A DNA stretch of 64,000 bases from a virus (IMGVR_UViG_3300045988_113120:24222-88221), one strand, 5' to 3'. Shown: positions 22,332-35,374, counted from the stretch's first letter. Notes: generated by a model from the sequence alone, not told the origin. Numbers and translations: made by a program.

Positions 22332-22745
22332 TTACCCCTTTCGTTTATTCATTAAGTTAAGAAAATCTGCAACATCCTGCATAGCATGTACGCCAGAATA
22401 TACTTTAATACGATTTTCTTTCAATAAATTTTCGACTGCTTTTAAACTGTGGCTCATCTGCTTAGATTCTTTATTCTTTTGTTCCTGATAGAGATTAAGA
22501 AAGATCACTTTATCTGGTCGCTTATGAGAATCATCAACTACTTCTGCAATACTGTATACTCCTTTAATACCATTCGTAATGCCATACAGAACATAGTCAG
22601 ATTCTTCTCTTTCCTTGACTTCCCGCAGTCGGTCTTCTTCACTCCAATTTTTTACGATTGGATTATAATAATCACAATCCAACATCTTCTGTAGCTGGTC
22701 TCTCCACTTCCATCCAGAGCATGTTCCGCCTAAAAACACTTTCAT
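22332..22745 (-). CDS. Small nucleoside 2-deoxyribosyltransferase-like protein (tentative)
   Basis: 137 aa beginning VFLGGTCSGWKWRD with a NP...DYVLYGI pattern, reminiscent of the same fold as 17623..18105. Confidence 0.35.
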   Translation of the reverse strand: MKVFLGGTCSGWKWRDQLQKMLDCDYYNPIVKNWSEEDRLREVKEREESDYVLYGITNGIKGVYSIAEVVDDSHKRPDKVIFLNLYQEQKNKESKQMSHSLKAVENLLKENRIKVYSGVHAMQDVADFLNLMNKRKG

Positions 22746-23041
22746 TCTTCTTTCTCCTTCACCTTTGCTTTTGATTGATTTGGCTTTTTAACCGATTCAA
22801 CATATATTTCCCAGTCATCTGCATATACATCTTCCGCAAGAGGTATCCAAACTTCTGCGTTTTCTTTATCAAATAAAAAAATAATTGAATCTGGCTTATA
22901 TTCACCCATATCATTACACTCAAAATAAACATTAGTTAATTCTGACGAATAAATTTTCAAATACTTTTCCTTTCCCCAAATGCCTCTTCTTATAGTAGTT
23001 TTGTCTTTTTTTATTGCGATCATTGCTTTTATAAAATTCAA
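22742..23041 (-). CDS. Hypothetical protein
   Basis: 99 aa ORF with a 4-bp overlap. Confidence 0.4.
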   Translation of the reverse strand: MNFIKAMIAIKKDKTTIRRGIWGKEKYLKIYSSELTNVYFECNDMGEYKPDSIIFLFDKENAEVWIPLAEDVYADDWEIYVESVKKPNQSKAKVKEKEE

Positions 23042-23049
23042 TTAATTAT

Positions 23050-23361
23050 TCACCTCTTCCTTTTACTGTTAAAATCCCATCCTTGCTCAACCCAATCATT
23101 TGCGAAAATATCCTCTTGTGTAGGCAACCATCCCAATGTTATAACTCCATTTTGGTCTCTACATAAGAGTGGTTTCATTTTATATTTTTTATCAAATGGA
23201 ATAATCTCATTTAATTCTTCTTCGCACATCATAAACACATAATCATAAGTTGTTCGTGTCTTCTTCCACGAACTACGACGATACAATTGCCTTGGATTAA
23301 TTTCCATATTTTGCATCATCATTTCAAACGACATTCCTTGTTTCTTTTTTGCCATTGGCAT
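23050..23361 (-). CDS. Hypothetical protein
   Basis: 103 aa ORF. Confidence 0.4.
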   Translation of the reverse strand: MPMAKKKQGMSFEMMMQNMEINPRQLYRRSSWKKTRTTYDYVFMMCEEELNEIIPFDKKYKMKPLLCRDQNGVITLGWLPTQEDIFANDWVEQGWDFNSKRKR

Positions 23362-23666
23362 TATTTCTCCTTTACAATCTTAACTTTATAACCAAGTTCC
23401 TTTTCAATTTCTGCAACCGTCATTTCTTTTGGCGGTGATAAACTCATATTTAAACTATCAATATCAGATTCCATATTCCAAACGCTTCTGTAGATCAATC
23501 GTCCCGTCAAAATACAAATTGCTTTCTTAACTTCGTCTGCCGTCGGTGGATAATGATCTAATGATGAAATAATATGTTTGTAATTTTCTTCATTCAATAA
23601 AACACGTTTAGAATCGAGGGATGTATTCTCTTCTTCCCGTGATTCAATATATAAGAAGTTGTTCAT
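23361..23666 (-). CDS. Hypothetical protein
   Basis: 101 aa ORF with a GGAGAG RBS. Confidence 0.4.
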   Translation of the reverse strand: MNNFLYIESREEENTSLDSKRVLLNEENYKHIISSLDHYPPTADEVKKAICILTGRLIYRSVWNMESDIDSLNMSLSPPKEMTVAEIEKELGYKVKIVKEK

Positions 23667-23833
23667 TATATCTCTCCTTTCTCAATTTCTTCTTTAATAA
23701 TTCTATATGCAAGAGCCTCATCAGACTCTTTGTCATTAATTCCATTTCTTTCTAACAGCCTGTCCAATTCACTGGGACTCAGCCGATCAAAGAATCGTTT
23801 TATCTCTTGTTTTCGTTGTTGTCTCGATTTCAT
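23667..23833 (-). CDS. Small charged helical protein (55 aa), translationally coupled to the downstream gene
   Basis: Minus-strand ORF MKSRQQRKQEIKRFFDRLSPSELDRLLERNGINDKESDEALAYRIIKEEIEKGEI. Its TAA stop overlaps the ATG of the next gene (taATG). It is below the 60-aa cutoff of the ORF track. Confidence 0.35.
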
Positions 23834-23847
23834 TTTTTTTGTTTAAT

Positions 23848-23950
23848 TTCCTTTAATTATGTTATTTTTTATAGTTACCAAACTGTTTCCAGAGTGGGAT
23901 GCGACAACGTAGTAGTTTTGTACCTATGTTATTTTTTATAGTTGTCAAAC
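23848..23950. CRISPR. Mini-array I: 2 x 36-bp repeats (first one degenerate) flanking one 31-bp spacer
   Basis: Repeat at 23915..23950: gttttgtacctatgttattttttatagttgtcaaac. It shares its first 15 and last 6 nt with the repeats of array II. A degenerate copy sits at 23848..23883. Spacer at 23884..23914: tgtttccagagtgggatgcgacaacgtagta. Confidence 0.4.
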
Positions 23951-23988
23951 CCAAAATAACATAAATCCGACAAAATAACATAGATTTT

Positions 23989-24019
23989 AGTGAGTGCCAT
24001 AATAAGCCTCACTTTTGGC
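23989..24019. ncRNA. Conserved hairpin element copy 1 (AGTGAG-loop-CTCACT + TTTTGGCG); candidate tracr/omegaRNA-like scaffold or terminator
   Basis: The 6-bp stem agtgag/ctcact is conserved in three copies, with variable loops of 9-13 nt, and is always followed by ttttggc. It is preceded by inverted partial copies of the repeat core (aaaataacata, twice). Confidence 0.35.
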
Positions 24020-24086
24020 GTACTCAATATTATTTGAGCAGAATATTTTATATATTCCCAAAACACACCAAATATTTTAAAATTTT

Positions 24087-24115
24087 TATTTTATTGAGTT
24101 TATAATGTGAAATCA
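24087..24115 (-). promoter_or_regulatory. Sigma-70-like promoter on the minus strand (TTGATT-17-TAAAAT) reading into the module-I leader and array I
   Basis: On the minus strand, TTGATT is followed by a 17-nt spacer (tcacattataaactcaa) and TAAAAT. Downstream lie the conserved box, the hairpin, the anti-repeat and array I. Confidence 0.4.
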
Positions 24116-24154
24116 AATAAGTACAAACGTTCTTTCTTGTACCTAATACTTCAC

Positions 24155-24256
24155 GTTTTGTACCTATGTAAAACTAAATAGGTATCAAACAGGCTTCTCA
24201 CTGCGAAATATTGATGATGAGTTTTGTACCTATGTAAAACTAAATAGGTATCAAAC
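24155..24256. CRISPR. Mini-array II: 2 identical 36-bp repeats flanking one 30-bp spacer
   Basis: Repeats at 24155..24190 and 24221..24256: gttttgtacctatgtaaaactaaataggtatcaaac, with the internal palindrome tacctat/ataggta. Spacer at 24191..24220: aggcttctcactgcgaaatattgatgatga. Degenerate repeat-like sequence flanks both sides. Confidence 0.5.
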
Positions 24257-24303
24257 CTCAAATTCTTTTGTCCAATTTTTGCTACCTAATTTACATAGAT
24301 TTT

Positions 24304-24333
24304 AGTGAGTATCTTACAATCTCACTTTTGGCA
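24304..24333. ncRNA. Conserved hairpin element copy 2
   Basis: agtgag-tatcttacaat-ctcact followed by tttggca. It is preceded by the segment tacctaatttacatag, which resembles or complements the array II repeat core. Confidence 0.35.
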
Positions 24334-24392
24334 TAGCCACAATTCAGTGACCAGAAATTTTAATTGGAATAAAATTTCCCAAAACATGCCAT

Positions 24393-24497
24393 GTATTTTA
24401 CTTGTGTAATTTAATATGGTTCTAAAACTGAGGCATAGTGGGTAAAAATATTGTAGTTTCAGTTTTGTACTTGTGTAATTTTTAATGGTTCTAAAAC
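24393..24497. CRISPR. Mini-array III: 2 near-identical 36-bp repeats flanking one 33-bp spacer
   Basis: Repeats: gtattttacttgtgtaatttaatatggttctaaaac (24393..24428) and gttttgtacttgtgtaatttttaatggttctaaaac (24462..24497). Spacer at 24429..24461: tgaggcatagtgggtaaaaatattgtagtttca. Both arrays II and III are followed by cctcaaat. Confidence 0.5.
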
Positions 24498-24558
24498 CTC
24501 AAATCTTAATTATGTATACAATACGGAACTTTATGTTCTACTTCATTACACAAATTTT

Positions 24559-24586
24559 AGTGAGTGACTTCTCCTCACTTTTGGCG
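24559..24586. ncRNA. Conserved hairpin element copy 3, adjacent to the 3' end of the nuclease gene
   Basis: agtgag-tgacttctc-ctcact followed by tttggcg. A second hairpin GGAGGGA-gtacggaac-TCCCTCC lies at 24608..24630, between the first hairpin and the nuclease stop codon. Confidence 0.35.
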
Positions 24587-24644
24587 CAACCACTTTATTT
24601 ATGGTTGAGGGAGTACGGAACTCCCTCCAAAACACACCAAATAT

Positions 24645-26276
24645 TTAAGCAGCTTTTTTATTATCATTATTTTTATCATCTTCTAATATAATTCCATAAT
24701 AATCTGCCGCAGCTTGAATCGTTTCTTTTGAACATTTAAATTTATCGTCTGTAAATTGTGTTGACATTGCGATGTTTCTAGCCGCATTATAGTCTGCGTT
24801 TACAGTATATAATTTGTGGCTTTTACAATTAGGATTCTTGCATTTAAATGTTGCCTGATCTTTTCTTTGTTCCTTTTCCCAGTGCCCACAAAAACTACAT
24901 ACTTGGGATGTAAATGACGGGTTGATTTTTCTAACTATGATTCCACATTGTTCTGCTTTATATGTAATATATTGTTGTAGTTTGTAAAAGCTCCAGTTTC
25001 TTAAAACAAATTCGCTTGAGTCATACCCTTTTAAATTTTCTATGTTGATATATTTTGCCCTATGTTTAATTGCGTAATCAACGACTGTTTTACTAACTCG
25101 ATGGCAATATGTATCAACAAAATTCTTTTCTTTTTCTTTTAACCTCTCTAAAGCTAATAATTTTCTTTTCCTTCCATGCCCACCTTTTGCTAATTTTAAA
25201 GCTTTTTGTAACTGCGTATATTCATTTTGAAATTTTGTTCTTCTTGTAACAAGATCATTTCCACTGCCGATATATTGTTTATCGTATTCGTTATTATTTA
25301 AAGCACACACAGCAGGAACAGCAAGTCCTAAATCAACTCCAACAACAGTATTTTCATCTAAATCCATTTTTTGTTTCTGCATTGTTATACTTAAATTCAT
25401 TTCAATTTTATCGTCATCAATGCCAAAGGTACTTCCACCGACTGAATACTCTCCTGTGAAAATCTTGATAATCGTTGAAATTAATTCTGTCTTATTCTTA
25501 TTTTGTTTATGCCCAAAGTTAATTTTGAATTTAGCAATCGTTGGGGAACCATTCTTGCCTAAACACACATATACTGGACATGTAGGTTTACCAATATTCT
25601 TTTTTAATTCTGTTATATCTTTGCAATCTGTAAAAATACCGAAATCCTTATTGGTTAAAGTAAAAGGAGAATCGAATTTGTAATTTGGAACAGAAACTTT
25701 TCCTTCCAATACTCCATCTTTAATTAAATTCTTAATCTTGCTGGTAAACGCTTGTTTGAAATCAGATCCATATCCTGCTAATGGATTATCAATGTCAACA
25801 TTTGTAAAGATACTACCATTCTTATTACCTGCTTTACGATAACACTCTTTTACATTATCACTCACCCATTTATTCTTTTCTGTAAGAGTCGGTAAATTTG
25901 CCACTTCTTCTTGTATCATTTTTGTATATATGTAAGATAGAATATAGTTCTTTCGTCTTGCTTCACTCTCCATTGCCTTTCTTACAATATCGTATGTATA
26001 ATCACTTGCTATTTTATGAGTGTATTCTTTAATTCCATTTTCTTTGAACTCTTCATATTGCTTTTCTAATTCTGCAAGCTGTTGTTTATATCCATCTTTC
26101 CGTTCTGGCTTACTTGTGTTTTTAATCTGTCTTTTTTTAGATTCAATTTTCTTCGGAAAATCCTTTTCTAAAAAAGCATTAACTCTTTTCTTCCATTTAT
26201 CATTGTCGCTTGCAACGGGAATCAAAGTAATCTTCCTTGCGATTGTCATTGTGTTGTCGTCTTGTTTCTTAGCCAT
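24645..26276 (-). CDS. TnpB/Cas12f-like RNA-guided endonuclease (RuvC split domain plus C-terminal zinc finger)
   Basis: 543 aa with RuvC-I (VVGVDLGLAVPAVCA), RuvC-II (YINIENL), a Zn finger (CSFCGHW...CKNPNCKSHKLY) and RuvC-III (NADYNAARNIA). The start overlaps the upstream gene's stop by 4 bp. The stop abuts the repeat/hairpin modules. Confidence 0.8.
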   Translation of the reverse strand: MAKKQDDNTMTIARKITLIPVASDNDKWKKRVNAFLEKDFPKKIESKKRQIKNTSKPERKDGYKQQLAELEKQYEEFKENGIKEYTHKIASDYTYDIVRKAMESEARRKNYILSYIYTKMIQEEVANLPTLTEKNKWVSDNVKECYRKAGNKNGSIFTNVDIDNPLAGYGSDFKQAFTSKIKNLIKDGVLEGKVSVPNYKFDSPFTLTNKDFGIFTDCKDITELKKNIGKPTCPVYVCLGKNGSPTIAKFKINFGHKQNKNKTELISTIIKIFTGEYSVGGSTFGIDDDKIEMNLSITMQKQKMDLDENTVVGVDLGLAVPAVCALNNNEYDKQYIGSGNDLVTRRTKFQNEYTQLQKALKLAKGGHGRKRKLLALERLKEKEKNFVDTYCHRVSKTVVDYAIKHRAKYINIENLKGYDSSEFVLRNWSFYKLQQYITYKAEQCGIIVRKINPSFTSQVCSFCGHWEKEQRKDQATFKCKNPNCKSHKLYTVNADYNAARNIAMSTQFTDDKFKCSKETIQAAADYYGIILEDDKNNDNKKAA

Positions 26277-33116: not shown

Positions 33117-33887
33117 TTAATCATCCAACTCCATTCCTGCCTCGATCCACATGCCAGATATAAATTTAGGCATTGGAGCAAGTTTAAATACATTCTTCTC
33201 ATGCATCTCGTCAATGATCTGTCTCACTGCTTCATCTTTACATACTCCAGTTCTCAGATATTCGTCTAACATATCATATGTAAATCCAAGATTATCTTCA
33301 TCTGTCTTACCGCATAATCCATCAGTAGGTGTTTTTTCGATTAACTCTGTTGGAAGTCCCAGAACTCTACCAATTGCTTTAACTTCTGTCACAGTCAGAT
33401 CACTTAATGGACTAAAATCTCCGGCTGAATCTCCATATCTTGTTGCATATCCGACCCAATCTTCAGATAAATTACATGTATTTGCTACTCTTCCATTCAT
33501 ACTCTGTGCAAAAGCATACAATGTAGCCATTCGGATACGAGCAGGTAAATTTGTGGCACTCTGTTTACTCCATTTACCGCCTAATTCATCTCTGATTTCA
33601 TGTTTAATATCTCTGCAAGCATTAAAAATATTAACTGTGTAATGTTCAATTCCTAGATGATCACATAGCATCTGAGAATACTCAATATCACTCTGCACAC
33701 CCTGTGGCATCATAATTCCAATAACTCGATCTTTACCTAGTGCTTCGACACATAAGGCAGCGACAACTGATGAATCTTTACCGCCTGAAATTCCTACAAC
33801 GGCATTACACCATCTTCCATTAACTTTAAACCAATCTCTAATCCACTGTACTAATCTGTCTTTGGTTTCTGCTGCATTAAAACTCAT
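33117..33887 (-). CDS. nadE: NH3-dependent NAD+ synthetase
   Basis: 256 aa. PP-loop motif VGISGGKDSSVVAAL. NadE-like length. Confidence 0.75.
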   Translation of the reverse strand: MSFNAAETKDRLVQWIRDWFKVNGRWCNAVVGISGGKDSSVVAALCVEALGKDRVIGIMMPQGVQSDIEYSQMLCDHLGIEHYTVNIFNACRDIKHEIRDELGGKWSKQSATNLPARIRMATLYAFAQSMNGRVANTCNLSEDWVGYATRYGDSAGDFSPLSDLTVTEVKAIGRVLGLPTELIEKTPTDGLCGKTDEDNLGFTYDMLDEYLRTGVCKDEAVRQIIDEMHEKNVFKLAPMPKFISGMWIEAGMELDD

Positions 33888-33904
33888 GTTTTATATCTCC
33901 TCTC

Positions 33905-35374
33905 TTAAAATTCTCCTTCGTTTAAAACTCTTCTAATTTCCTGTAATGACTGTTCTTTTACCAATTTGCCATCTCTAAATACTGTCTCAAGCAGATTATT
34001 CATTGGAAGATTTTCTGAAGTATATCCATCTTTAAATGTCAATTTACCGTCTAATCCTGTATAGACATGACATAAACCTCTCTGAGATTTCTTAAATCCG
34101 CCATCTTTTGGATTCTTGAAAATTGGATATGGTTTGCCATCAATCTCACAATACGTTGCTTTAATACAACTGCTAAATGTATCTCTTGTAAATGGTTTCA
34201 AAACTCCATTTTCTTCAATACACTGGAATGAGAATGATCCGACGCCAAGTGCAACATTGCTTGCTGCGAATCCATTTTTCTCTAAAATGTCATAAATCTG
34301 CTCACATCTCTGCACTGTAATTGAATCTCCGTAAATTGCTTTTACATGAGGATCTAATACTTTATATCCTTTACTATTCGTAGTTCCGCCAAACTCTTCC
34401 CATAACTTGAATACCGTTCTGGTTACTACATCTACACAATCTCCTGAATCCCCTCTTACAAGAAAACATCCATTGTGATTCATAATCTCATTCTTGAGTT
34501 TTGGAAGAATATTCTCTACAACGTTCCAATAATCATATGAATCCAATACTGCGGAGAAGCTTGTGTTTCGATAAATCTCTGTAAGTAATCTTTTAATCAG
34601 AGTCTCTTCATCTCCGTCAATCGCATAATTACTACACGCAACCGAATGTTCCGTTGACGGGCTACCAAAAGCAACTGGTTCTTTCGTACAATCACAGTTA
34701 TAATTTCTCTCTAAATATGGAATTGTTGGAACTGTTGCTGTATTTAAGAATGATAAACACCATCCTGCCCCTGCTTTAACCGCAGACTGTAAACATTCTT
34801 CGCCACGAAAATCGAAAGCCCCTAATGCTTTAGATTTTGGAATATCGTCATCACAAGTCATTTCATAAAACTTATTAACGATCTGTCTATATGTATGCCC
34901 GACAGTTGCAGCGATCATCGGATGCCACATTTCTGCGGAAATTAAGCTTTCTAATGCCTGTGGCAACCATGCAAAATCTTTATGTGTATTCTCAATACTA
35001 AACATCGGCACATGCATTGGTACTAAAGTTCCTTCAGGAAGAGCCTTAATCTCAATTGGAAGATAGCCAAGATCATATAAATCTTCTATTTTCTGTAATC
35101 CATATGTACCTTCTCCAAGAGCTGCATCCATTACTGTCTTATAAGTACCAATTGCTTTGTTTCTATATTCAAAGAAAAAATACTCATTAAAATAATCGAC
35201 CAAATACTCTTTAATGAATCCTTGTAATCCAAACATGGCTACTTCATTCCATCGTTTTACTCTGCTCATACGTGGAGTAAAATAAGAAACAGATTTTGTA
35301 ATACCTTTTGGTAACATTTCAGCATGAACTGCTTTATAAAAATCAATTAATAACATTGGATTTGTCTGTTTCAT
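33905..35374 (-). CDS. Nicotinamide phosphoribosyltransferase-like enzyme (NAMPT/NadV family; could be a Namat-type ADPR-PP transferase)
   Basis: 489 aa. Its N-terminus NPMLLIDFYKAVH and the stretch LPIEIKALPEG closely match NAMPT (NILLATDSYKVTHY; LPIEIKAVPEG). The start overlaps the Prs-like gene by 4 bp. Confidence 0.75.
   Translation of the reverse strand: MKQTNPMLLIDFYKAVHAEMLPKGITKSVSYFTPRMSRVKRWNEVAMFGLQGFIKEYLVDYFNEYFFFEYRNKAIGTYKTVMDAALGEGTYGLQKIEDLYDLGYLPIEIKALPEGTLVPMHVPMFSIENTHKDFAWLPQALESLISAEMWHPMIAATVGHTYRQIVNKFYEMTCDDDIPKSKALGAFDFRGEECLQSAVKAGAGWCLSFLNTATVPTIPYLERNYNCDCTKEPVAFGSPSTEHSVACSNYAIDGDEETLIKRLLTEIYRNTSFSAVLDSYDYWNVVENILPKLKNEIMNHNGCFLVRGDSGDCVDVVTRTVFKLWEEFGGTTNSKGYKVLDPHVKAIYGDSITVQRCEQIYDILEKNGFAASNVALGVGSFSFQCIEENGVLKPFTRDTFSSCIKATYCEIDGKPYPIFKNPKDGGFKKSQRGLCHVYTGLDGKLTFKDGYTSENLPMNNLLETVFRDGKLVKEQSLQEIRRVLNEGEF

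What the first reader, a model, noticed from the sequence alone, without database searches (positions are those of the whole stretch)
23951..24650. Each module carries anti-repeat segments, a conserved AGTGAG/CTCACT hairpin with U-tract, and a conserved box: tracrRNA/omegaRNA-like scaffold, triplicated
Downstream of each mini-array on the plus strand there are short inverted partial copies of that module's own repeat core. Module I has aaaataacata twice. Module II has ctatgtaaattaggta. Module III has gttctac...attacacaa. These can base-pair with the repeat in a single transcript.

They are followed by a hairpin with an invariant 6-bp stem (agtgag/ctcact) and loops that vary from 9 to 13 nt. 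The stem is conserved while the loop changes, which points to RNA structure rather than a protein operator. Then comes TTTTGGC(G/A), and then an A/T-rich box: cccaaaaca(c/t)(a/g)cca(a/t)(a/g)tatttta.

On the minus strand, a TTGATT-17-TAAAAT promoter at 24087-24115 reads box, then hairpin, then anti-repeat, then array I. This is the order scaffold then guide, as in Cas12f sgRNAs and TnpB omegaRNAs. Module III additionally has a GAGGGAG/CTCCCTC hairpin right after the nuclease stop.
Basis: seen in the sequence. Interest (0 to 1): 0.7.

Follow-up and report, generated by a model that had tools for sequence, protein, structure and literature searches.

The report
Three tracrRNA–mini-array modules, phage Cas12f
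A large phage carries one small Cas12f-type RNA-guided nuclease followed by three tandem guide-RNA cassettes, each a structured tracrRNA-like scaffold plus its own short CRISPR array, and each scaffold's pairing segments have co-evolved with that array's repeat.

Summary
Immediately downstream of a 543-aa Cas12f1-like nuclease (24645-26276, minus strand) lie three paralogous modules. On the minus strand each reads: closing helix P1, a GUUUUG strand, two variable stems, the AGUGAG/CUCACU hairpin, an anti-repeat, a short linker, then a 36-nt repeat, spacer(s) and a degenerate terminal repeat.

On 40 modules from 14 related phages aligned without reference to structure, six helices are 99-100% paired, with 226 compensatory cells against 76±11 in shuffles. 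G·U pairs (123, against 4 A·C) assign the RNA to the nuclease-sense strand. A second set of 24 distant modules gives the same result.

Corrections:
- The 'U-tract' is the complement of the P1 3' strand plus an A-rich junction, not a terminator tail.
- The GAGGGAG hairpin is the module III version of a stem present in every module.
- The promoter is only a consensus match.

Two to four such modules per nuclease are common in this phage clade, and a Clostridioides difficile relative has two. My literature searches found no description of this layout. No RNA, activity or spacer target was shown.

The parts
24645..26276 (-). 543-aa Cas12f1-like (TnpB-derived) nuclease. RuvC D315/E413/D495 and the CxxC...CxxxxC zinc finger are invariant in the family alignment.
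   Evidence: Pfam Cas12f1-like_TNB plus OrfB_IS605. NCBIfam guided_TnpB 154 bits. PDB best hit 8hr5 CnCas12f, E 1.2e-57 single sequence and 1.6e-95 profile. Invariant columns in alignment A2.
24531..24640 (-). Module III scaffold (tracrRNA-like). P1 24634-38 with 24583-87; pseudoknot strand GUUUUG 24628-33; stem S1 24607-27 (the GAGGGAG hairpin); stem S2 24588-606; hairpin 24559-79; anti-repeat 24546-55.
   Evidence: Column-to-coordinate mapping. Pair counts on A3. MFE -51.0 kcal/mol on the minus strand against -42.7 on the plus strand.
24393..24497 (-). Module III mini-array. Repeat 24462-97 (its last 6 nt, 24462-67, are the pseudoknot partner); spacer 24429-61; degenerate terminal repeat 24393-428, which runs into the start of module II.
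24278..24392 (-). Module II scaffold. P1 24386-90 with 24330-34; pseudoknot strand 24380-85; S1 24353-79; S2 24335-52; hairpin 24304-26; anti-repeat 24291-300, with a second pairing segment UUAGGUA extending to about 24284.
   Evidence: The RNA fold at -46.1 kcal/mol (z = -4.3) recovers P1, S1, S2, the hairpin and the repeat:anti-repeat duplex, and leaves GUUUUG and CAAAAC unpaired.
24093..24256 (-). Module II array. Repeat 24221-56; spacer 24191-220; repeat 24155-90; 26-nt spacer 24129-54; degenerate terminal repeat 24093-128.
23951..24071 (-). Module I scaffold. P1 24065-69 with 24017-21; pseudoknot strand 24059-64; S1 24040-58; S2 24022-39; hairpin 23989-24013; anti-repeat 23974-85; a second anti-repeat copy at 23951-64.
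   Evidence: MFE -48.1 kcal/mol on the minus strand against -33.1 on the plus strand.
23848..23950 (-). Module I mini-array. Repeat 23915-50; spacer 23884-914; degenerate terminal repeat 23848-83. It is followed directly by the ribosome-binding site and start codon of the next gene.
   Evidence: The same spacer occurs in the array of a related phage, L092.
24088..24116 (-). Promoter-like TTGATT-17-TAAAAT upstream of module I, lying inside the degenerate terminal repeat of module II. Status uncertain.
   Evidence: Consensus scan, 9 of 12 matches; 11 sites found in the region against 6.0±2.7 expected. The element recurs in variant form in L001-L007.

Best explanation
The region is the guide-RNA part of a phage-borne type V-F1-like (Cas12f1 / V-U3 lineage) CRISPR system without adaptation genes. 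It is organised as three tandem cassettes on the nuclease strand.

**What each cassette encodes.** Each encodes a compact tracrRNA-like scaffold of about 95-110 nt, followed 13-50 nt later by its own array of 1-2 spacers (1-3 in relatives).

**Shown by comparative analysis.**
- The scaffold folds into a closing helix P1, two variable stems S1 and S2, and an invariant AGUGAG/CUCACU hairpin.
- Directly after CUCACUAAAAU comes an anti-repeat that pairs with the 3' half of that cassette's own repeat.
- The GUUUUG strand next to P1 forms a pseudoknot with the last six bases of the repeat, the bases that abut the guide.

**Inferred.**
- The nuclease recognises the parts common to all cassettes: the P1/pseudoknot geometry, the hairpin and the A-rich junctions.
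- It tolerates the cassette-specific repeat:anti-repeat duplex.
- It uses the spacer 3' of each repeat as the guide, as in Cas12f and TnpB.
- Because scaffold, anti-repeat, repeat and first spacer are contiguous and co-oriented, the first spacer of each cassette can be used in cis as a natural single-guide RNA. Further spacers would need pairing in trans.
- Transcription is probably read-through from the nuclease operon, perhaps with an internal promoter for module I, followed by processing.
- Divergence of repeats with compensating anti-repeat and pseudoknot changes makes the cassettes partly orthogonal and less prone to recombine.
- Targets are probably competing mobile elements or host defences, given the counter-defence neighbourhood.
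For: **Nuclease.**
- Cas12f1-like by Pfam, NCBIfam and PDB.
- The catalytic D/E/D residues and the zinc finger are invariant in the family alignment.

**Real CRISPR arrays.** Seven phages with 91-94% identical nucleases keep the same three modules but carry different spacers, 1-3 per module. The terminal repeats are degenerate at the end distal to the scaffold.

**Structure, close set.** MAFFT alignment A3 holds 40 modules from 14 loci and was not fitted to any structure.
- P1 is 100% paired, the pseudoknot 99.1%, S1 99.0%, S2 99.1%, the hairpin 98.9%, and repeat:anti-repeat 99.5%.
- 22 pairs show changes on both sides.
- 226 compensatory cells against 75.7±10.7 in shuffles (0 of 500 reach the observed value).
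- Controls with the 3' partner slid by 1-3 columns are 32-51% paired.

**Structure, distant set.** Alignment A4 holds 24 module types from nucleases 41-53% identical to the window's.
- P1 97%, pseudoknot 96.7% (4 of 5 pairs compensatory), hairpin 99%, repeat:anti-repeat 86%.
- 119 compensatory cells against 34±4.5 in shuffles.
- A repeat:anti-repeat helix that I mis-registered by one column scored 35%.
- Pseudoknot variants read from the sequences: UUUUG/CAAAA, UUUCG/CGAAA, AUUUCA/UGAAAU, UUCAG/CUGAA, UUUGG/CCAAA, CCUUUU/AAAAGG, UUCGAU/AUCGAA, GUUCUG/CGGAAC.

**Strand.**
- 123 G·U against 4 A·C cells.
- All 95 hairpin-plus-array modules detected in 84 loci are co-oriented with the nuclease.
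- Minus-strand folds are 8-15 kcal/mol more stable.

**Cognate pairing in the window.** Duplex energies (kcal/mol) are I:I -18.3 (against -10.1 and -4.4), II:II -17.3 (against -9.9 and -3.7), and III:III -13.8 (against -6.8 and -12.4).

**Precedent.**
- A pseudoknot between guide-adjacent nucleotides and the 5' part of the scaffold is conserved in TnpB and Cas12 guide RNAs (PMC10097598; 10.1101/2025.01.20.633832).
- Published Cas12f1 sgRNAs and a Bacillus V-U3 locus show the same logic of a P1 loop pairing with the repeat end.

**No adaptation genes found.** None within ±3 kb, none among the 20 large ORFs (244-1077 aa) of the window that I scanned, and none in the syntenic locus L008.
Against: - No transcript, RNA end, ribonucleoprotein or cleavage activity was observed. 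Everything is inferred from sequence.
- No protospacer was found for any spacer tested, so targets and PAM are unknown.
- The promoter evidence is at chance level.
- Orthogonality is only partial: the module III anti-repeat pairs with the module II repeat almost as well as with its own (-12.4 against -13.8 kcal/mol).
- A4 is built from concatenated pieces (scaffold core plus the 3' part of the repeat), and I chose which modules went in.
- Many rows of A3 come from closely related phages, so cell counts overstate the number of independent events. The variation is between module types: three in the window and several more in L008, L018-L022 and L044.
- The protein passes only the generic TnpB NCBIfam cut-off, not a Cas12f-specific one.
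Confidence: 0.85

Rival explanations
1. Only one module is functional. The others are decaying duplicates carried along by descent.
For: - Mini-arrays of one spacer with degenerate terminal repeats look minimal.
- Some modules in relatives show defects. L008 module b has hairpin arm CTCTCT and junction CCAACAG. L021 module b has a pseudoknot strand GUUUCG opposite a repeat end CAGAAC.
Against: - In every module type all six helices stay 99-100% paired, through compensatory changes specific to that type.
- All three modules are kept in the same order in 7 of 7 close relatives, each with its own spacer turnover.
- Two to four modules recur across distant branches of the family.
Confidence: 0.07
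2. The modules are omegaRNAs of a TnpB transposon (IS200/IS605-like) that was triplicated. They are not CRISPR units.
For: - The protein passes only the generic TnpB family threshold.
- The first scaffold begins at the nuclease stop codon, as omegaRNAs do.
- Scaffold and first guide are contiguous.
Against: - Guides are flanked by 36-nt repeats.
- They number 1-3 per module and differ between phages whose flanks are 91-95% identical.
- No TnpA or other transposase is called in the neighbourhood.
- The locus is syntenic in many phage genomes rather than dispersed.
- The best solved relatives are CRISPR-associated Cas12f1 proteins.
Confidence: 0.03
3. The hairpins act on the plus strand as terminators or attenuators, or at the DNA level as protein operators. 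The complementarity to the repeats is incidental.
For: On the plus strand each hairpin is followed by TTTT. The plus strand also folds better than shuffled sequence, z = -3.5.
Against: - No terminator-like site is called on either strand.
- All genes in the region are on the minus strand.
- 123 G·U pairs would become A·C mismatches on the plus strand.
- Compensatory changes in six helices, one of them a long-range pseudoknot, are not expected of an operator.
Confidence: 0.02
4. The cassettes mainly serve to exploit or jam a host system, for example as decoy guide RNAs for a host Cas12f or as bait for host Cas1-Cas2, rather than to arm the phage nuclease.
For: - A related phage, L092, has lost the nuclease and most scaffolds but keeps an array containing the same spacer as the window's module I.
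- Phage-encoded guide-RNA mimics that subvert Cas9 have been reported (abstracts of 10.64898/2026.06.01.729453 and 10.64898/2026.06.03.729762, listed).
- No adaptation genes are present, so spacer gain must rely on something in trans.
Against: - The hairpin motif is found next to the nuclease in 75 of 85 loci examined, and every module detected is on the nuclease strand.
- The catalytic residues of the nuclease are intact.
- Full-length relatives are almost absent from bacterial genomes, so a matching host effector is not evident.
Confidence: 0.03

Closest known systems
Type V-F1 / V-U3 CRISPR-Cas12f1 with tracrRNA (CnCas12f1, PDB 8HR5; also Al3Cas12f, OsCas12f1, RhCas12f1, uCas)
   Same: - Nuclease homology: profile E = 1.6e-95 to CnCas12f.
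- Small size, and no adaptation genes in many loci.
- A tracrRNA encoded between nuclease and array on the same strand (uCas preprint).
- A 5' hairpin whose loop pairs with the repeat's 3' end, a GAG/CUC-type hairpin, and an anti-repeat at the 3' end.
   Different: - The scaffold here is shorter: the anti-repeat follows the hairpin directly.
- It sits 13-50 nt from the first repeat.
- It is present 2-4 times per nuclease, each copy with its own diverged repeat.
- The N-terminal ~170 aa of the protein do not align to solved Cas12f structures.
- The context is a 85-210 kb phage genome.
- The exact AAAGTGAG...CTCACTAAA motif did not turn up in the supplementary files I searched of two Cas12f ortholog papers or of the Karvelis 2020 Cas12f paper.
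TnpB omegaRNA (ISDra2) and transposon-CRISPR intermediates (TranC)
   Same: - Scaffold and guide lie on one strand in the order scaffold then guide.
- A pseudoknot forms between guide-adjacent bases and the 5' part of the scaffold (PMC10097598).
- The first unit of each module is contiguous, like an omegaRNA.
- The split of omegaRNA into tracrRNA and crRNA is regarded as the key step from TnpB to Cas12 (PMC13565253).
   Different: - Repeats flank the guides, and spacers turn over between strains.
- There are no transposon features.
- LaTranC structures match the protein profile only at E ~ 0.006-0.009.
Cas12p 'Cas12 hacker', a phage-encoded miniature Cas12 with tracrRNA (10.1101/2025.01.20.633832)
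   Same: - Phage-borne and miniature, and uses tracrRNA plus crRNA.
- Its pseudoknot pairs AAAC with UUUG, between the repeat's 3' end and tracrRNA nucleotides 7-10. Here CAAAAC pairs with GUUUUG just after the 5' strand of P1.
   Different: - It is a different protein family: 9jfs matches the profile only at E = 6e-5, over the zinc finger alone.
- Its tracrRNA is longer, 118 nt in the solved sgRNA and 185 nt in the expression construct.
- It needs host thioredoxin.
- No multi-module layout is mentioned in the sections I read.
Virus-borne CRISPR mini-arrays and adaptation-less viral CRISPR systems (review PMC11656645)
   Same: - Arrays of one or two spacers on a virus, with no adaptation module.
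- The presumed role is in conflicts between viruses or in counter-defence.
   Different: - Classical viral mini-arrays borrow the host's effector and carry the host's repeat.
- Here the phage brings its own nuclease and a dedicated tracrRNA for every mini-array.

Membership tests
Type V-F1 (Cas12f1 / V-U3) CRISPR-Cas | Small effector (400-700 aa) with a TnpB-like split RuvC (D-E-D) and a zinc-finger/TNB domain | tested here: met
   543 aa. Pfam PF07282 plus PF01385. D315, E413, D495 and the Cys ligands are invariant in A2.
Type V-F1 (Cas12f1 / V-U3) CRISPR-Cas | Closest characterised relatives are Cas12f1 proteins | tested here: met
   8hr5 CnCas12f at E = 1.6e-95, followed by Al3Cas12f, RhCas12f, OsCas12f and AsCas12f. 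The identity of 8HR5 is confirmed.
Type V-F1 (Cas12f1 / V-U3) CRISPR-Cas | Passes a curated Cas12f-specific family model | tested here: not met
   NCBIfam Cas12f2 scores 109.5 bits against a cut-off of 450. Only the generic guided_TnpB subfamily model passes, 153.9 against 100.
Type V-F1 (Cas12f1 / V-U3) CRISPR-Cas | Adjacent CRISPR array whose spacers vary between strains | tested here: met
   36-nt repeats with spacers of 26-33 nt. Spacers differ, and number 1-3 per module, in L001-L007.
Type V-F1 (Cas12f1 / V-U3) CRISPR-Cas | tracrRNA with an anti-repeat that pairs with the repeat | tested here: met
   The repeat:anti-repeat helix is 99.5% paired with compensatory changes in A3 and 86% paired in A4. 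Only the pairing potential is tested, not the RNA itself.
Type V-F1 (Cas12f1 / V-U3) CRISPR-Cas | Pseudoknot between the 5' part of the scaffold and the guide-proximal end of the repeat | tested here: met
   99.1% paired in A3 and 96.7% in A4, with eight covarying sequence variants listed in this report. Precedent.
Type V-F1 (Cas12f1 / V-U3) CRISPR-Cas | Protein dimer on one guide RNA; PAM-dependent cleavage of double-stranded DNA | not testable with these tools
   Needs biochemistry or structure determination. No protospacers were found from which a PAM could be inferred.
TnpB-omegaRNA (IS200/IS605) element | A single guide at the transposon end; guides tied to the insertion site rather than repeat-flanked and variable | tested here: not met
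   Guides are flanked by repeats, number 1-3 per module, and differ between near-identical phages.
TnpB-omegaRNA (IS200/IS605) element | Associated TnpA transposase and transposon ends | tested here: not met
   No transposase family is found on neighbouring genes within about 3 kb. Transposon ends were not searched for explicitly.
Curated RNA families (Rfam 15) | Match at or above a family's gathering score | tested here: not met
   The only hits are sub-threshold CRISPR-DR22 matches to two repeats, 20.8 and 16.9 bits against a threshold of 50. Nothing matches the scaffold.
Intrinsic (rho-independent) terminator | G+C-rich stem, short loop, then a U-run on the transcribed strand | tested here: not met
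   No terminator-like sites on either strand in 23600-24900. On the RNA strand the hairpin is followed by AAAAU.
Cas12p ('Cas12 hacker') | Protein homology across the whole effector | tested here: not met
   9jfs matches only profile positions 420-500, at E = 6e-5.

The most novel reading that the evidence does not exclude
One phage Cas12f nuclease natively runs two to four partly orthogonal tracrRNA:crRNA pairs. Every mini-array brings its own co-evolving tracrRNA.
- The first spacer of each cassette would work as a natural single-guide RNA.
- Whole cassettes would be swapped between phages by recombination.

This would be a modular guide-cassette organisation not described for any CRISPR type. 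It would also be a living example of the contiguous (omegaRNA-like) and split (tracrRNA/crRNA) guide formats coexisting in one locus.
Probability: 0.4. Interest if true: 0.75.

Novelty: new variant of a known kind. Interest (0 to 1): 0.55.

Why it matters
**For CRISPR biology.**
- A single effector can be served by several dedicated tracrRNAs whose pairing segments have diverged together with their arrays. This gives a natural experiment on which scaffold parts the protein reads and which only need to pair.
- The contiguous layout of scaffold, anti-repeat, repeat and guide bears on how omegaRNAs split into tracrRNA and crRNA.

**For phage biology.** It adds a widespread family of adaptation-less, nuclease-plus-guide cassettes. 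The family is on the order of hundreds of proteins, mostly on 45-210 kb viral contigs, and here sits among counter-defence genes.

**For tools.** It offers a 543-aa nuclease with a scaffold of about 100 nt and several naturally compatible scaffold variants, which could lower recombination between guides in multiplexed constructs.

None of this has been tested at the bench.

Tried and rejected
**Spacer targets: nothing found.**
- 218 spacer segments from all loci against the window and all fetched loci gave three matches, none in the window. I did not check whether those matches lie in arrays my detector missed.
- The four window spacers, and 65 family spacers concatenated, against GenBank phages gave no match.
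- Four exact-pattern scans of IMG/VR found only arrays of related phages or nothing.

**Rfam.** No family matches the scaffold.

**GenBank phages.** No DNA match for the locus in distant mode.

**Automated pseudoknot test.** I compared cognate with non-cognate pairs across 42 modules using self-detected repeat ends. It was not discriminating (5.4 against 4.95 bp), because the boundaries are uncertain by 1-2 nt and an 81-nt A/T-rich search space gives high background. I replaced it with column-based counts.

**First idea for the box.** I first thought TTTTGG pairs with CCAAAA next to the hairpin. I rejected this because TTCTGG, TTTCGA and TTTTGA variants occur opposite a constant CCAAAA, whereas GGYRY/RYRCC (P1) and GUUUUG/CAAAAC (pseudoknot) covary.

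**Second repeat:anti-repeat duplex.** The segment UUAGGUA pairing with UACCUA is only 51% paired overall. It exists in some module types only.

**The box's own TAAAAT as a -10 element.** Unlikely, because a start site 5-9 nt downstream would truncate P1.

**Motif regex on bacterial relatives.** It found nothing. Reading the sequences showed a diverged version of the same core with a longer loop.


Full report
**Setting**

All ORFs around the finding are on the minus strand.

The ORF at 24645-26276 (minus) encodes a 543-aa protein.
- It has Pfam Cas12f1-like_TNB and OrfB_IS605 domains.
- It passes the NCBIfam guided_TnpB threshold but no Cas12f-specific one.
- Its best solved relative is 8hr5, at E = 1.2e-57 with the single sequence and 1.6e-95 with a family profile. 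8HR5 is CnCas12f, originally type V-U3.
- Al3Cas12f, RhCas12f, OsCas12f and AsCas12f follow in the hit list.
- The RuvC D/E/D residues and the zinc-finger cysteines are invariant in a 29-member alignment.

The window is a large phage genome.
- It encodes Pol III alpha, RecJ, a primase-like protein, an integrase, NadE and NAMPT.
- Two Tad2-like anti-Thoeris genes lie directly downstream of the locus.
- I found no cas1, cas2 or cas4 near the nuclease, among the 20 large ORFs (244-1077 aa) I scanned, or in the syntenic locus L008.

**The observation**

The three modules align with each other at 73% mean column identity. Read on the minus strand, each has this order:
1. the box;
2. two variable stems;
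3. GCCAAAAGUGAG-loop-CUCACUAAAAU;
4. a 9-12 nt segment complementary to the 3' half of that module's own repeat;
5. a linker ending in AUUUGAGG;
6. a 36-nt repeat, then spacer(s) and a degenerate last repeat.

Module III starts at the nuclease stop codon. Its last repeat runs into module II. Module II has two spacers, and its degenerate last repeat precedes module I.

The anti-repeat matches are not chance. A 9-mer or longer complementary to a given repeat occurs in any 20-nt slot of the rest of the window with frequency 0.003-0.01. All three modules have one in the same slot, and four of the nine helix positions differ between modules on both sides:
- CUAUGUUAU with AUAACAUAG;
- CUAUGUAAA with UUUACAUAG;
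- UUGUGUAAU with AUUACACAA.

**Real arrays**

Seven IMG/VR phages with nucleases 91-94% identical keep the three modules in the same order. They carry different spacers, 1-3 per module. A 70%-identical relative (L008) and two at 61% (L022, L044) have four modules.

Contigs from short-read assemblies often break just after the nuclease, as expected at repeats.

**RNA structure, close set**

I aligned 40 modules from 14 loci with MAFFT alone (A3). I then wrote a structure on the columns and counted pairs.

| Helix | Cells paired |
|---|---|
| P1 (GGYRY with RYRCC) | 100% |
| Pseudoknot (box GUUUUG with repeat end CAAAAC) | 99.1% |
| S1 | 99.0% |
| S2 | 99.1% |
| Hairpin, with one extension pair | 98.9% |
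| Repeat:anti-repeat | 99.5% |

- 22 pairs show changes on both sides.
- There are 226 compensatory cells, against 75.7±10.7 in shuffles (0 of 500 shuffles reach the observed value).
- Controls with the 3' partner slid by 1-3 columns are 32-51% paired.
- A second repeat:anti-repeat segment is only 51% paired, so it exists in some module types only.

The rows are related, so cell counts overstate the number of independent events. The variation is between module types.

**RNA structure, distant set**

The hairpin motif occurs in 75 of 85 family loci, always on the nuclease strand, upstream and/or downstream of the gene.

In relatives with nucleases 41-53% identical, S1 and S2 are often absent. 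P1 then closes a 6-nt loop that is complementary to the 3' end of that module's own repeat.

For 24 such module types I joined the scaffold core to the 3' part of the first repeat and aligned them (A4).
- P1 is 97% paired.
- The pseudoknot is 96.7% paired, with 4 of 5 pairs compensatory.
- The hairpin is 99% paired.
- Repeat:anti-repeat is 86% paired.
- There are 119 compensatory cells, against 34±4.5 in shuffles.
- Slid controls are 32-45% paired.
- A repeat:anti-repeat helix that I first entered one column out of register scored 35%. This is an unplanned negative control.

Three rows (the L067, L078 and L081 types) use a pseudoknot and repeat:anti-repeat register shifted by one base.

**Strand and fold**

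- The helices of A3 contain 123 G·U cells and 4 A·C cells. That gives 99.3% pairing on the nuclease-sense strand, against 91.4% if the opposite strand were the RNA.
- All 95 hairpin-plus-array modules detected in 84 loci are co-oriented with the nuclease.
- The minus-strand RNAs of modules I, II and III fold to -48.1, -46.1 and -51.0 kcal/mol. The plus strands fold to -33.1, -33.3 and -42.7.
- Each minus-strand fold recovers P1, S1, S2, the hairpin and the repeat:anti-repeat duplex, and leaves GUUUUG and CAAAAC unpaired.
- Module II scores z = -4.3 against shuffles.

- **The 'box'.** It is the 5' strand of P1 plus the pseudoknot strand.
- **The plus-strand 'TTTTGGC(G/A)'.** It is the complement of the P1 3' strand and the AAAA junction.
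- **The GAGGGAG hairpin of module III.** It is stem S1. Modules I and II have GGAAUAU/AUAUUCU and GGAAAUUUUA/UAAAAUUUCU at the same place.
- **Terminators.** None is called on either strand.
- **The TTGATT-17-TAAAAT site.** It exists, and a variant recurs in relatives, but the region has 11 promoter-like matches against 6.0±2.7 expected. It could serve module I only.
- **The box's own TAAAAT.** It lies too close to P1 to be the -10 element of that module.
- **Transcription.** Read-through from the nuclease operon followed by processing is my inference.

**Mechanism**

The pseudoknot joins the guide-adjacent end of the repeat to the 5' part of the scaffold.
- This is the feature reported as conserved in TnpB omegaRNA and in Cas12 guide RNAs (PMC10097598).
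- In the phage Cas12p it is reported as AAAC pairing with UUUG at tracrRNA nucleotides 7-10 (10.1101/2025.01.20.633832).

It implies that the spacer 3' of each repeat is the guide, which is the type V orientation.

Because the anti-repeat lies 13-50 nt from the first repeat on the same strand, the first spacer of each module can be used in cis. Later spacers need pairing in trans.

Within the window the cognate anti-repeat:repeat duplex is always the most stable:

| Anti-repeat | Own repeat | Other repeats |
|---|---|---|
| I | -18.3 | -10.1, -4.4 |
| II | -17.3 | -9.9, -3.7 |
| III | -13.8 | -6.8, -12.4 |

Values are in kcal/mol. The modules are therefore partly, not fully, orthogonal.

**Comparison with known systems**

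Published Cas12f1 sgRNAs follow the same logic.
- Os and Ob1 types have the 5' hairpin GGGCG-ACUUCA-CGUCC, with repeat end UUGAAGG.
- A Bacillus V-U3 locus (L097) reads AGGCG-AUUUA-CGUCU AAAGGGUGAGG...CCACUCACUAAGGG, with repeat end UAAAU.

In both, the loop of the 5' hairpin pairs with the repeat end, and a GAG/CUC hairpin follows. The phage scaffold is therefore best read as a streamlined member of the Cas12f1 tracrRNA lineage.

- It has no Rfam match.
- Its exact motif did not turn up in the supplementary files I searched of two Cas12f ortholog papers and the Karvelis 2020 paper.
- Cas12p is a different protein family, E = 6e-5 over the zinc finger only.
- It is not a TnpB transposon unit: guides are flanked by repeats and vary between strains, and no transposase is nearby.

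**Novelty**

The unusual point is the repetition of whole tracrRNA-plus-array cassettes around one nuclease, with repeat, anti-repeat and pseudoknot strand diverging together.
- At least 30 of 84 family loci have two or more modules, a lower bound from a strict pattern.
- L093 has one module on each side of the gene.
- A Clostridioides difficile chromosome locus (L100) has two tracrRNA-plus-array modules, 77% identical over 249 nt, flanking a 38%-identical nuclease.

Six literature searches found no description of this layout. The library lacks many subscription papers, including the main survey of virus-encoded CRISPR systems and the CnCas12f structure paper. Prior mention therefore cannot be excluded.

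**Limits**

- No RNA, protein-RNA complex or activity was observed.
- No spacer target or PAM was found.
- The host is unknown. Full-length relatives in genome collections sit on 173-181 kb MAG contigs, one binned to Treponema and one to Lachnospiraceae, and on shorter contigs binned to Erysipelotrichaceae and Lachnospiraceae; the large ones may be phage contigs.
- How spacers are gained without adaptation genes is open.

Noticed in passing
L092:3600-3960 (IMGVR_UViG_3300045988_130367); corresponds to window 23848-24280: A phage about 95% identical to the window in the flanks has lost the nuclease gene, module III and the scaffolds of modules II and I. It keeps a hybrid orphan array: type II repeats, then the same spacer as the window's module I, then type I repeats.
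   Followed up: partly
window 23950-23957, 24256-24263, 24497-24504 (minus strand), and the same position in nearly all modules of L001-L091: AUUUGAGG immediately 5' of the first repeat is nearly invariant across module types and in distant relatives, yet it belongs to no helix of the model. It could be a leader-anchoring signal for spacer integration or a processing site. Unexplained.
   Followed up: no
window 22742-23361 (minus) and 33117-35374 (minus): Two Tad2-like (anti-Thoeris) genes lie directly downstream of module I. NAD synthase and a nicotinamide/nicotinate phosphoribosyltransferase gene lie 7-9 kb upstream of the nuclease. The CRISPR locus therefore sits in what looks like a counter-defence neighbourhood.
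   Followed up: partly
L100:1900-4300 (Clostridioides difficile chromosome OX246690.1): A bacterial V-U3-type relative (38% identity) is flanked by two tracrRNA-plus-array modules that are 77% identical over 249 nt, with slightly different repeats. A type I-B-like array lies about 1.6 kb further upstream. The multi-module layout is therefore not confined to the phage clade.
   Followed up: partly
window 23951-23985 (minus): Module I carries its anti-repeat twice (CUAUGUUAUUUU and UAUGUUAUUUUGG, 19 nt apart). The duplication is kept in L001-L007. Its role is unknown.
   Followed up: no
L021:4491-4713 and L008:4855-5077: Some modules look chimeric or damaged. L021 module b combines a pseudoknot strand GUUUCG with a repeat ending CAGAAC, leaving one mismatch. 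L008 module b has hairpin arm CUCUCU and junction CCAACAG. This suggests recombination between module types and occasional decay.
   Followed up: no
L009-L011 (Logan assemblies): Contigs carrying the 66%-identical nuclease end 435 nt after the gene, inside the second module. Short-read assemblies will therefore under-report these cassettes.
   Followed up: no
window 24645-26276, residues 1-170: The N-terminal ~170 residues of the nuclease do not align to any solved Cas12f or TnpB structure in the profile search, although they are conserved within the phage family.
   Followed up: no
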